The notes beneath the pieces are model-generated. The model ran no database searches and had not been told where the DNA came from. It saw only the letters and a list, made by a program, of their open reading frames with translations. From positions 1 to 64,000 of the forward strand of contig JALGPX010000063.1 in the NCBI GenBank assembly GCA_023515795.1: a stretch of DNA of 64,000 nucleotides, in the 5' to 3' direction. This DNA is from Amoeboaphelidium occidentale. Its lineage: Eukaryota. Below, piece after piece: positions 18,539-21,683 of this stretch. Position numbers and translations under genes: made by a program. Each line of letters starts with the position of its first letter. Position 1 is the first letter of the stretch.

Positions 18539-19815
18539 ATGCCTGACGGAGACGGTCCTCCTAAAGACGAAAAGAGCACATTACAAATGCAAGCGGGTCA
18601 GCATCATGGGCAGCAGCAACAGGAAGAAGGTGCGATGAGCTCGAGCATACATGGTCAAGGCGTAAGCAATCGATTTGCTGATCAACAGACATCTGATTAC
18701 TTCACCTACACACCAGTTCCTGTTCTTGCTCATCCTTCTTCGTATATGGTCACTGCGTATAACTCATATACTCCATCCTACTTTACTGCGATTCCAGTGG
18801 CTTCCATGGCGAACTTTCGTCCTTATAGCCAGCAACCTGGAATGATACCTGGTGTGCCTGCAGAATGGAATCACTATCATCCTCCTGGCTTCTACTATAT
18901 GCCTAATGGTTTGGTGTCCACTTCTGCTAGTCCTATACTTGTTATGCCCAATGAGCCCCAGCACCAAGTGCAAGTGCCAACTACAGAGAATTCTGATACT
19001 GATTCGGTTCGTCAATATCACGAAAGATTACATTCATTGTACTCTAATTACAATTTGCTTTCTAAACAGTCTAGCTCTACAAGTGGTTCTGTTCCAAGTA
19101 TGCAATCATCTGGTCCAAATTCTATAAGCAGTTTTGTGAAGGACGAAAGGAATGTTTACTTACAGGGCTTACCGCCTGATACTACTGAAGAAAGCCTAGC
19201 TGGCTTTATACCTGAAGGATTACGGGAGAAGTTGGTCTCCTCCAAGATTATATACAATCAGGATATCAAGTCTCATAGTTTAGGTCAGACAGAATTAGTC
19301 AACAACACTCAATGCAAGGGTTATGCCTTTCTGCTGTTCTCAGATTCTGCTTCTGCTTCGGCATTTATTAATCATATTAATACGGCAAATATACCAACAG
19401 AGTCCAATATGGCGGTAAAACAGAAAATTCACGCAAGCATTGCCAAAGAAAGTTTCAGCTCAAGATTAAGAGAGCTAGGCGCTGGCAAGGAAAGCAACTT
19501 GTATTTTGCGAATATTCCTCCTCATTTCGCAGAGAATGATCTTGTTGAAGTGGTTGAAAAGAAGCTTCAGATTTCTGGTGCAGTCGAGAGCTCCAAGATA
19601 TTGCGGAGTTCTGACGGCAAGAGTAGATGTGTTGGCTTTATTCGTTTCAAGACACCTCAGTATGCAGCCTTGTGCTTGAATGAAATGAACGGTTTTTTGA
19701 TCGAAGGGTAAGAATCTGCTTTTTTCTTTAATGCTTTAGAGCCATGTTACCTTTGCAAGTAAGGTATGCTGATAACAAGCAGCAGAAAGACTTGAAATTG
19801 TCGCGACAGCGGTAA
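18539..19815 (+). CDS. Two-RRM RNA-binding protein (RBMS/MSSP/Spo5-like)
   Basis: NVYLQGLP, CKGYAFLLF, SNLYFANIP, SRCVGFIRF, LQVRYAD; intron 19708-19739; a possible further intron 19812-19883 would extend the CDS to 19923. Confidence 0.75.
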
Positions 19816-19949
19816 TGATACTACAACTAATTTAACTATTGATTTATTGCTGCTCGGGTATTGATAATTTTGCGGCATCGTAGAAAAAGAATGAAAATAA
19901 CTGGCCCTTCGCTACAGGATTAGTTCAAATAAAACCAAATCTTACTTAA

Positions 19950-20071
19950 AAGAGCGTTACACGAATCGCATGATTTCTCGGCTACGCTGGTGGAGACTGT
20001 ACAAGTAAATATGCGAACATACTCACCTGTCTTTAACCACCAATTAAATTTTGCAGTTAGCTGACGAAACA
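19950..20071 (-). ncRNA. Putative Fanzor omega-RNA scaffold, copy A
   Basis: ACAGGUGAGUAUG-UUCG-CAUAUUUACUUGU hairpin closed by UGGUGG/CCACCA; second AGCGU/ACGCU hairpin. Confidence 0.6.
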
Positions 20072-20182
20072 TCATGCACGAGTCTTCCTGGAGAACGCAA
20101 GCGGTCTTTTACCACCATTTGCATTCAANATAACTGGCCCTTCGCTACAGGATTAGTTCAAATAAAACCAAATCTTACTTAG

Positions 20183-20304
20183 AAGAGCGTTACACGAATC
20201 GCGCGATTTCTCGGCTACGCTGGTGGCGACTGTACAAGTAACTATGCAGGCATAATCACCTGTCTTTAACCACCAATTAAATTTTGCAGTTAGCTGACGA
20301 AACA
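20183..20304 (-). ncRNA. Putative Fanzor omega-RNA scaffold, copy B
   Basis: Directly 3' of the Fanzor stop; ACAGGUGAUUAUG-CCUG-CAUAGUUACUUGU hairpin closed by UGGUGG/CCACCA; second hairpin 20186-20221. Confidence 0.6.
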
Positions 20305-20495
20305 TCATGCACGATTCTTCCTGGAGAACGCAAGCGGTCTTTTACCTTCATTTGCATTCAAATCCAAGAAAACGTGTCTGATATTTCGTGCAGCGTTAAT
20401 GTCCCTGTTCCAAACAGTTAAGCAATCTGAATTGCAGACTTTAACGCCCAAAACTTTGTCTGTTTCAACTCATGTAAACAGAAGGAACAGAACTT
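20305..20495 (-). pseudogene. Fanzor/TnpB nuclease C-terminal remnant (Zn finger + RuvC-III)
   Basis: KFCSFCLHELKQTKFW / GVKVCNSDCLTVWNRDINAARNIRHVFLDLNANEGKRPLAFSRKNRA*, with one 1-nt frameshift. Confidence 0.8.
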
Positions 20496-20708
20496 GCAGG
20501 ATTTCTTTGAGCTAGATATACCCCCTTTAAGAAAGCGCATTCGCACTCCAGCTCGCAGCATGTAGACGCTTGAGCTGGAGCTCTGCGCGATAAAAACAAG
20601 ATATAAATTCCAAAGAGACTATTTGGTGAACCCCTGCAACTTGGTATGCTTTAAGTTCTTGTTTGGAACGCTATCTGTTAAGAACTCGCAACTACGTGTC
20701 TATTGCTC

Positions 20709-21683
20709 TTAGTTCAGATCGTCAAAACTCTTATCAATGTATTTCAGCCATTTTCTGTGCTCATAGTCGTCTTCTTCATCACTTGATACTATAATTTTGC
20801 GCTTTGATGAGGAAGGCTGATAGTCTTCAGCAGTTTGCTTTCGCGGTCTCTTTTCATCCGACTTGTTATTGAGGTTGAGCCTAAAATAATTGTAATAATA
20901 TTCCCTGAGAGCGTCCTCGGATTTGCCCATCTGAGTTGCAAAATCTGTCCAGTCGATTTTACTGTCTTCTTCGTTAGCATACGTAGAATAGTAAATTTCT
21001 TCAAATTTCTTTTGATTTAGCTTTCCCTTCTTTGGCGAAGTACGTTTTTTCTTAGTCTTGGAGCCTTCTTTATTACTTGATGAGCCTGAATGATCGTCTG
21101 ATACGATTTCAATTACTTCGACCCGATTATCTTTTGTAGAGGTATCCGTTCCTGCCAATTTAAAGTATCTAGCCATTTTATCAATAATGTCTTGAGTAGC
21201 ATCTTTAAGTATCTCATGTTCTGCACGATCTTGGAGAGCTTCGTAACAAGCCATGCATTTATCCAAATAACTTTTGAGTTTCATAATATCATCCATTCTC
21301 ACGCTTATGTGGTCTTTAGGACTTGATTCTTTGTCGCTGGAGTGGTGGTTTGGACGTATGGGCTCTGGTGTAACTGATTGCTTCAATAGCAAAGCATTGC
21401 TTTCCTTGATATTATCATCAACTCTGTCCTTCTTAGAGACACCATCAAGTTTCGATGAGATATTATCCACCTTTCTCTCTATTGATCGAAGCATGTGTGC
21501 TAGTGTATCTATCTGAGTAAGTTTCCTCAAGTCCTTCTTTACATCAACGATCTGCTGATGTGATGGAGAATGATGATCTAAAGTTGTGACCATCCTGACC
21601 ATTCTTGTGACAAAGTCTTCAGGTGTGTTCCTACTTCTTTTGAAGTATTCCAGAGTATCAGGATCTGTTATTGAGATGTTCAT
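20709..21683 (-). CDS. Hypothetical nuclear protein with coiled-coils and a C-terminal Myb/SANT-like HTH
   Basis: IDWTDFATQMGKSEDALREYYYNY resembles a Myb-like helix-turn-helix; basic NLS-like tract; likely start MNISIT. Confidence 0.55.
   Translation of the reverse strand: MNISITDPDTLEYFKRSRNTPEDFVTRMVRMVTTLDHHSPSHQQIVDVKKDLRKLTQIDTLAHMLRSIERKVDNISSKLDGVSKKDRVDDNIKESNALLLKQSVTPEPIRPNHHSSDKESSPKDHISVRMDDIMKLKSYLDKCMACYEALQDRAEHEILKDATQDIIDKMARYFKLAGTDTSTKDNRVEVIEIVSDDHSGSSSNKEGSKTKKKRTSPKKGKLNQKKFEEIYYSTYANEEDSKIDWTDFATQMGKSEDALREYYYNYFRLNLNNKSDEKRPRKQTAEDYQPSSSKRKIIVSSDEEDDYEHRKWLKYIDKSFDDLN

What the first reader, a model, noticed from the sequence alone, without database searches (positions are those of the whole stretch)
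20305..20526. Cryptic Fanzor (eukaryotic RNA-guided nuclease) non-autonomous element missed by the ORF track
Seen: the minus strand encodes KFCSFC...FW/GVKVCNSDCLTVWNRDINAARNIRHVFLDLNANEGKRPLAFSR*, i.e. CxxC...CxxxC then NRDxNAAxNI, with one frameshift; everything upstream is missing. Established: this is the zinc finger plus RuvC-III signature of TnpB/Fanzor, and the WNRD...RP..F.R tail is Fanzor1-like. Inference: a ~350-bp (after collapsing the duplication) guide-donor derivative. It implies a present or past full-length Fanzor system in this basal-fungal lineage, possibly an undescribed family.
Basis: partly seen in the sequence, partly recalled or inferred. Interest (0 to 1): 0.9.

Follow-up and report, generated by a model that had tools for sequence, protein, structure and literature searches.

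The report
Mini Fanzor transposon without inverted repeats
This is a 456-base jumping element, present at many sites and absent from this spot in a related strain, that keeps only the tail of a Fanzor RNA-guided nuclease gene plus a likely guide-RNA scaffold; Fanzors were already catalogued in its likely host, an alga-parasitic relative of fungi, but its ends lack inverted repeats and the enzyme that moves it is unknown.

Summary
Real, and largely as read. The minus strand holds the last ~62 codons of a Fanzor1 gene (zinc finger plus RuvC-III) with a one-base frameshift. Contigs of four public runs define the element: 19901-20589, 456 bp once a 233-bp scaffolding duplicate is collapsed, flanked on both sides by TTAT (coding strand), without terminal inverted repeats. 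At least 16 contigs with long unrelated flanks end at one terminus in one run, and another run holds the exact empty site with a single TTAT. The 171 bases after the stop fold strongly as RNA (z -3.5 and -3.9), a likely omega-RNA scaffold. A 325-aa protein of the same family from Amoeboaphelidium occidentale keeps the D-E-D triad and folds like SpuFz1 (E 3e-15). The lineage claim is not new: that protein is a listed Fanzor hit (Yoon 2023), sister families are labelled FZ1 (Saito 2023), and gene-less 'ghost' loci are known. Not found in my searches: this element, or its mix of no inverted repeats and a fixed 4-base repeat. No full-length copy or transposase was recovered; a Crypton-like recombinase is my best guess (about 40%).

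The parts
19897..19900 (-). TTAT direct repeat at the right end (one copy remains at the empty site)
   Evidence: an X2 contig follows the window to 19900 and goes on with sequence matching window 20594 onward; 12 of 14 (X2) and 11 of 13 (X4) flank contigs in the rows shown keep all four bases
19901..20071 (-). right end and predicted omega-RNA scaffold, 171 nt (left-hand assembled copy)
   Evidence: z -3.85, 0 of 200 shuffles; -57.1 kcal/mol on the coding strand against -36.0 on the other
19894..20359 (.). 233-bp tandem duplicate around a single N (20129), 94% identical; likely scaffolding artefact
   Evidence: all 9 N sites of the window sit at the edge of a 105-290 bp duplicate, 6 of 9 as exact end-to-start overlaps
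20134..20304 (-). second assembled copy of the predicted omega-RNA scaffold
   Evidence: z -3.49, 0 of 200 shuffles; a 6-bp closing stem uses the last three element bases and three of the four TTAT bases
20305..20495 (-). Fanzor1 gene remnant: CxxC...CxxxC zinc finger, NRD (RuvC-III), C-terminal tail, stop; one base missing near 20444; no RuvC-I or II
   Evidence: table 4: the extra base is carried by contigs of all 4 runs
20496..20589 (-). left end, 94 nt, with a G+C-rich hairpin (10-bp stem 20581-20572 / 20554-20545) starting 8 nt inside the end
   Evidence: DNA fold z -2.78, 1 of 200 shuffles
20590..20593 (-). TTAT direct repeat at the left end; with the next base (TTTAT) the predicted target-adjacent motif
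   Evidence: table 7: loose ends pile up behind 20594 (X1 16, X2 11, X3 5, X4 17 contigs) and 20595 (X2 6, X3 1, X4 4)
19877..19896 (-). host flank that would serve as this copy's guide
   Evidence: inference from the omega-RNA model (PMC10711439 passages); sequence

Best explanation
This is a 456-bp, multi-copy, insertion-polymorphic deletion derivative of a Fanzor1 element that has lost its nuclease and likely survives as a guide-RNA donor moved in trans, most likely by a Crypton-like tyrosine recombinase crossing over at TTAT. Shown: a 94-bp hairpin-bearing left end is joined to the last ~62 codons of Fanzor1 and a 171-bp structured right end; TTAT stands on both sides, once at the empty site; there are no terminal inverted repeats; the remnant cannot make a nuclease (RuvC-I and II are gone). 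Inferred: read-through of the right end would give an omega-RNA whose scaffold takes in the TTAT repeat and whose guide is the next 15-20 host bases; a full-length Fanzor1 of this family, supplied in trans, would cut empty alleles beside TTTAT and repair from the filled allele would restore the element (homing). New sites need a transposase: Crypton-like recombinase about 40%, HUH single-strand type about 30%, DDE type with degenerate ends about 25%.
For: Fanzor1: profile of hits to PDB gives SpuFz1 1.6e-33, GtFz1 9e-25, PpFz1 9e-23, Fanzor2 5e-9, TnpB 0.03; same-family P0107 (325 aa) has DPG, E and NRD, its model (pLDDT 89) matches Fanzor1 chains in ranks 1-7, best E 3.2e-15, TM 0.62; it groups with P0121 (SH-aLRT 97, quick tree), labelled FZ1 in PMC10432273. 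Mobility: sharp ends and many flanks in 4 of 4 runs laid; exact empty site in X2; an X4 contig bridges the locus with only 149 letters between. RNA; 5 of the 9 differences between the two assembled copies in this region are unpaired in the two-sequence fold and the other 4 keep a pair. Ends: best in-register match 15 of 40, no end-to-end inverted repeat among 20 pairs; Cryptons are described as lacking TIRs and having 4- or 6-bp terminal direct repeats (PMC3212892) and Crypton-Fanzor links are reported.
Against: No full-length protein of this family was found: best identity to P0107 was 50% among 570-2000 aa proteins (24 hits) and 53% among 178-569 aa proteins (12 hits); P0107 itself is half a gene with a 25-codon gap, so the family may be dead. 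No transposase was seen. No expression data. The one apparent G.U/U.G swap is not clean covariation: most depth reads T at both positions. The two copies fold to different global structures. The inverted arms typical of tyrosine-recombinase sites are absent. The only near relative seen with a transposase (L004, 33% identical to the alignment's first row) has a DDE transposase and 25-bp inverted repeats.
Confidence: 0.6

Rival explanations
1. Same element, but moved as single-stranded DNA by an HUH transposase (Helitron, Replitron or IS200/IS605-like); TTAT is then partly or wholly the element's own end and not a duplicated target.
For: No TIR; G+C-rich hairpin 8 nt inside one end; oriented, asymmetric target. 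Shifted by one base the element reads 5'-TC and sits between A and T, two Helitron marks. Replitrons have short terminal direct repeats. Fanzor1 rides Helitron2 in Chlamydomonas.
Against: No CTRR 3' end in that register; the last 100 bases of the right end do not fold as DNA (z 0.02); no Rep gene seen.
Confidence: 0.3
2. Same element, moved by a cut-and-paste DDE transposase that makes a 4-bp target duplication and tolerates degenerate ends.
For: TTAT duplications flank the Fanzor1 elements HAgv-1 and PUgv-1; L004 pairs a related Fanzor1 with a DDE_3 transposase; MCi-5 has no TIR, an ATTTAT repeat and a Harbinger transposase.
Against: HAgv-1 and PUgv-1 have 13-bp TIRs; here only the terminal base pair is complementary.
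Confidence: 0.25
3. A selfish mini-element whose Fanzor tail and RNA fold are inert baggage kept only because they lie next to the right end; no guide is made or used today.
For: Frameshift in about half of the depth in X1 (2236 of 4573 carry the extra base); no intact parent found; no expression shown; covariation weak.
Against: Strand-specific fold in both assembled copies; ghost RNAs of SpuFz1 work with the protein in trans (PMC10432273).
Confidence: 0.35
4. Chance motif or assembly artefact.
For: An N and a 233-bp duplicate lie inside the element; the two halves may come from different copies (94% identity is the lowest of the nine).
Against: E down to 1e-21; both junctions are carried by long X1 contigs without a difference (9.2 kb to 19923, 22 kb from 20567); exact empty site.
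Confidence: 0.02

Closest known systems
Ghost Spu-1 loci of Spizellomyces punctatus (PMC10432273, passages)
   Same: Multi-copy, gene-less derivative of a Fanzor1 element that keeps the ends and the omega-RNA region; about 550 nt against 456; no transposase found there either
   Different: Spu-1 has 30-nt inverted repeats, a TA site and a 75-90 nt RNA; this one has no inverted repeats, a 4-base TTAT repeat, about 170 nt after the stop, and keeps ~62 Fanzor codons
A. occidentale FZ1 proteins (PMC10432273 supplement 3; PMC10711439 Table S2)
   Same: Same clade; KAI3657174.1 is the same family as the remnant
   Different: Listed as protein rows only; I saw no ends, target or RNA described, and KAI3657174 is absent from the PMC10432273 table
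MCi-5, MCi-2, MDe-4/5/6/12, CMe-1A, PCa-2, CRe-1 to 3 (PMC3627910, section 12 and file 1)
   Same: Fanzor1 elements without TIRs; MCi-5 has an ATTTAT repeat; MCi-2A carries a partial Crypton recombinase
   Different: None is listed with a 4-bp repeat; most have the TSD marked not available, none, or 11-12 bp
HAgv-1 / PUgv-1 / SFav-1 insect-virus Fanzor1 elements
   Same: 4-bp TTAT or TTAN duplication; transposase unknown
   Different: 13-bp TIRs, full-length gene of about 2 kb
Crypton (PMC3212892, passages)
   Same: No TIR, 4-bp terminal direct repeat
   Different: No recombinase gene seen; no inverted arms round the repeat

Membership tests
Fanzor1 | C-terminal zinc finger followed by RuvC-III NRD | tested here: met
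Fanzor1 | DPG motif and rearranged RuvC-II glutamate | tested here: met
   in same-family P0107 (D95, E253, D289); absent from the window copy by deletion
Fanzor1 | closer to Fanzor1 than to Fanzor2 or TnpB | tested here: met
   sister proteins labelled FZ1
Fanzor1 | omega-RNA expressed over the right end | not tested
Fanzor1 | RNA-guided cleavage next to a TAM | not testable with these tools
   needs a full-length protein and a bench assay
non-autonomous mobile element | many copies with sharp common ends and an empty site | tested here: met
MITE / DDE cut-and-paste | terminal inverted repeats | tested here: not met
Crypton | no TIR, 4-6 bp terminal direct repeat | tested here: met
   definition
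Crypton | parent encodes a tyrosine recombinase | not testable with these tools
   no genome held; no parent locus found
Helitron | 5'-TC, CTRR-3', insertion between A and T, 3' hairpin | tested here: inconclusive
   5'-TC and A^T fit in a one-base shifted register; CTRR and a 3' DNA hairpin do not

The most novel reading that the evidence does not exclude
Aphelids carry a Fanzor1 transposon class that has kept or re-evolved the bacterial IS200/IS605 logic in a nucleus: no inverted repeats, a hairpin left end, a fixed TTTAT target that doubles as the nuclease's TAM, and an undescribed recombinase or HUH transposase; its active mini-copies form a strain-variable guide library that cuts empty alleles.
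Probability: 0.2. Interest if true: 0.75.

Novelty: new member of a known kind. Interest (0 to 1): 0.4.

Why it matters
Whether Fanzors help their transposons spread by cutting empty alleles is still open (PMC10432273 discussion). Here a filled and an exactly empty allele of one locus exist in related strains, which gives a concrete predicted TAM (TTTAT), guide and scaffold to test. The ends do not fit a standard cut-and-paste element, so finding the parent could name a new Fanzor-transposase pairing. As a remnant of an already catalogued Fanzor1 clade it is otherwise ordinary.

Tried and rejected
No genome was held, so no genome-wide search for the parent. Rfam: 0 matches at E<=1 in 19700-21000. 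The 54-aa piece alone found no Fanzor in PDB (1 chance hit) and 1 protein in the word-indexed search. No other copy in the window. The 3782 extra letters in X2 and X4 first looked like a full-length element at the same site; one search shows X2 is empty there, so they lie further right. The G.U/U.G swap was dropped as covariation. Summed contig depth was not used as copy number. Earlier-findings look-ups returned nothing. The careful tree did not finish; the quick one is cited. Paper searches with no useful result: (0 papers).

Full report
Observation. The window is gene-dense eukaryotic DNA read by the standard code (an eL8 ribosomal protein scores best on fungal entries). The finding lies between two convergent genes: an RRM gene whose likely last exon stops at 19813-19815 and an ORF of no confident family ending at 20712. 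Pfam PF07282 hits weakly (E 9e-4, under cut-off). An index-free search of 1.84 billion proteins gave 104 hits at E<=0.001, many of them the C-termini of 640-750 aa proteins; 18 of the 20 hits I scanned match PF07282 at E<0.001. A profile of 18 relatives picks out only the two pieces among 2611 window peptides.

Family. The best hit, P0002 (88% identical), is named Amoeboaphelidium occidentale; its cluster also holds P0106 (54 aa) and P0107 (KAI3657174.1, 325 aa). The window's host is therefore likely this aphelid or a close relative; I did not establish it otherwise. P0107 is the C-terminal half of a Fanzor with DPG, the rearranged glutamate, the zinc finger and NRD. A profile of 26 hits finds SpuFz1 (1.6e-33), GtFz1 and PpFz1 far ahead of Fanzor2 (5e-9) and TnpB (0.03). 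The AlphaFold model of P0107 (pLDDT 89) ranks Fanzor1 chains first to seventh (best E 3.2e-15). In a quick tree of 39 proteins P0107 groups with P0007, P0136 and P0121 (SH-aLRT 97) inside a 26-row clade (99). Seven longer A. occidentale gene models are 34-44% identical to P0107, so the species has several Fanzor1 families; none of them is this family's full-length gene.

The duplicate. 19894-20126 and 20127-20359 are 94% identical around one N. All 9 N sites of the window border a 105-290 bp duplicate, 6 as exact end-to-start overlaps, so this is most likely a scaffolding overlap. It has the lowest identity of the nine, as expected if the two contig ends ran into different copies of a repeat.

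The element. Contigs of four coded runs (4 of the 24 listed; X1 may be the window's own source and is not independent) show flat depth in the flanks and a repeat between about 19896 and 20594. Loose ends with long unrelated flanks pile up behind 20594 (16, 11, 5, 17 contigs) and before 19895-19897; 120 further rows were not shown. In the narrower, 12 of 14 X2 and 11 of 13 X4 flank contigs in the rows shown keep ATAA at 19897-19900 (9 rows hidden), and the neighbouring A is common but not fixed. An 8.7-kb X2 contig follows the window to 19900 and continues with sequence matching window 20594 onward: an exact empty site with one ATAA. An X4 contig bridges the locus with 149 letters between. The element is thus 19901-20589, 456 bp collapsed: 94 bp left end, 191 bp gene remnant, 171 bp right end, flanked by TTAT on the coding strand within a preferred T-TTAT-T. 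The empty site cannot tell a duplicated target from a terminal repeat. There are no terminal inverted repeats. The frameshift is not family-wide: an extra base after 20444 is carried by 2236 of 4573 depth in X1, 316 of 394 in X2, 273 of 273 in X3 and 334 of 718 in X4, which gives the FWAVK of P0002, P0106 and P0107. An X1 contig skips 308 letters (233 + 75), matching the 25-codon gap at the end of P0107, so that longer copy is damaged too.

RNA. The right end folds as RNA far better than shuffles (z -3.85 and -3.49, 0 of 200) and about 20 kcal/mol better on the coding strand than on the other. In one copy a 6-bp stem closes the structure with three of the TTAT bases, in line with the report that Fanzor1 scaffolds take in the target duplication (PMC10711439); the other copy's best fold differs. 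Of 9 differences between the copies, 5 are unpaired and 4 keep a pair, but the one two-sided change is probably two separate changes from a U.U majority. Rfam has no match. The left end has a DNA hairpin (z -2.78); the last 100 bases of the right end have none.

Mechanism. Shown: no nuclease or transposase can be made from this copy; it has many insertion sites and is polymorphic. Inferred: it is moved in trans, and its right end would yield an omega-RNA with a guide from the host flank, directing a full-length Fanzor1 to empty alleles beside TTTAT, so that repair restores it. Ghost RNAs of SpuFz1 work in this way with the protein (PMC10432273), and TAMs often match the insertion site (PMC10530073). 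Homing cannot make new sites, so a transposase is needed. No TIR plus a 4-bp direct repeat is the description of Cryptons (PMC3212892), my first choice at about 40%; HUH (30%) and DDE (25%) remain. Against the whole model: no intact parent was found, and the only relative seen with a transposase, L004 on a contig with a VLTF3 gene, has a DDE_3 enzyme and 25-bp inverted repeats.

What is known. Full-text searches for Fanzor with Amoeboaphelidium gave 0 papers, but supplements hold the proteins: 84 mentions of 'occidentale' in PMC10711439's file (25 rows seen), KAI3657174.1 among them; 38 mentions of the genus in PMC10432273's table, 17 of 19 rows seen labelled FZ1, including P0120, P0121, P0129 and P0132, but not KAI3657174; none in PMC10530073's two files. 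TIR-less Fanzor1 elements and TTAT duplications are each listed in PMC3627910, but not together. What I saw: PMC3627910 passages, section 12, supplement 1 whole and a search of 12 of 14 files; PMC10711439, PMC10432273 and PMC10530073 passages and supplement search rows; PMC3212892, PMC10288648 and PMC11423790 passages; other papers as listings only.

Verdict. A real, recently mobile, ghost-type Fanzor1 derivative in a lineage whose Fanzors are catalogued but unstudied. New member of a known kind, with unusual ends and a testable filled/empty allele pair. Interest 0.4.

Noticed in passing
window 20651-20654 (runs X2 and X4): Contigs of X2 and X4 carry 3782 letters between 19900 and 20653; X2 is empty at the Fanzor site, so a separate insert of about 3.7 kb likely lies near 20652, where the window reads TTAA. 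Two independent inserts in one short intergenic spacer.
   Followed up: partly
window 20526-20594: Summed contig depth is several times higher over the left end than over the rest of the element, and 5 X1 contigs with long loose ends join at 20558: a hint, not a count, that other elements, perhaps the parent, share this left end.
   Followed up: no
window 19896-19900 and 20590-20594: On the plus strand the preferred target reads AATAAA, 85 bp after the RRM gene's stop. It resembles the canonical poly(A) signal (recalled knowledge); targeting it would steer inserts to gene ends. Speculative.
   Followed up: no
window N sites 247, 6264, 15508, 16510, 20129, 42931, 43170, 43801, 56272: Every N borders a near-identical duplicate: tandem repeats at gaps in this assembly are suspect, and the internally repeated A. 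occidentale Fanzor gene models probably have the same cause.
   Followed up: yes
L004 4578-7915: Apparently complete 3.3-kb element with a DDE_3 transposase, a ~700-aa Fanzor1 and 25-bp inverted repeats (80%), on a contig with a VLTF3 gene, likely a giant virus.
   Followed up: partly
alignment A2: Most full-length members of this clade begin with a short Cys/His motif (C..CG...H.R.S...CP) that may bind zinc; function unknown.
   Followed up: no
P0134: A 1356-aa protein joins XPG nuclease domains to a Fanzor-like C-terminus.
   Followed up: no
P0107 and P0128: Two different Fanzor1 families have close locus tags (000298 and 000295) and the same longest-contig length, so they may be neighbours or nested.
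   Followed up: no
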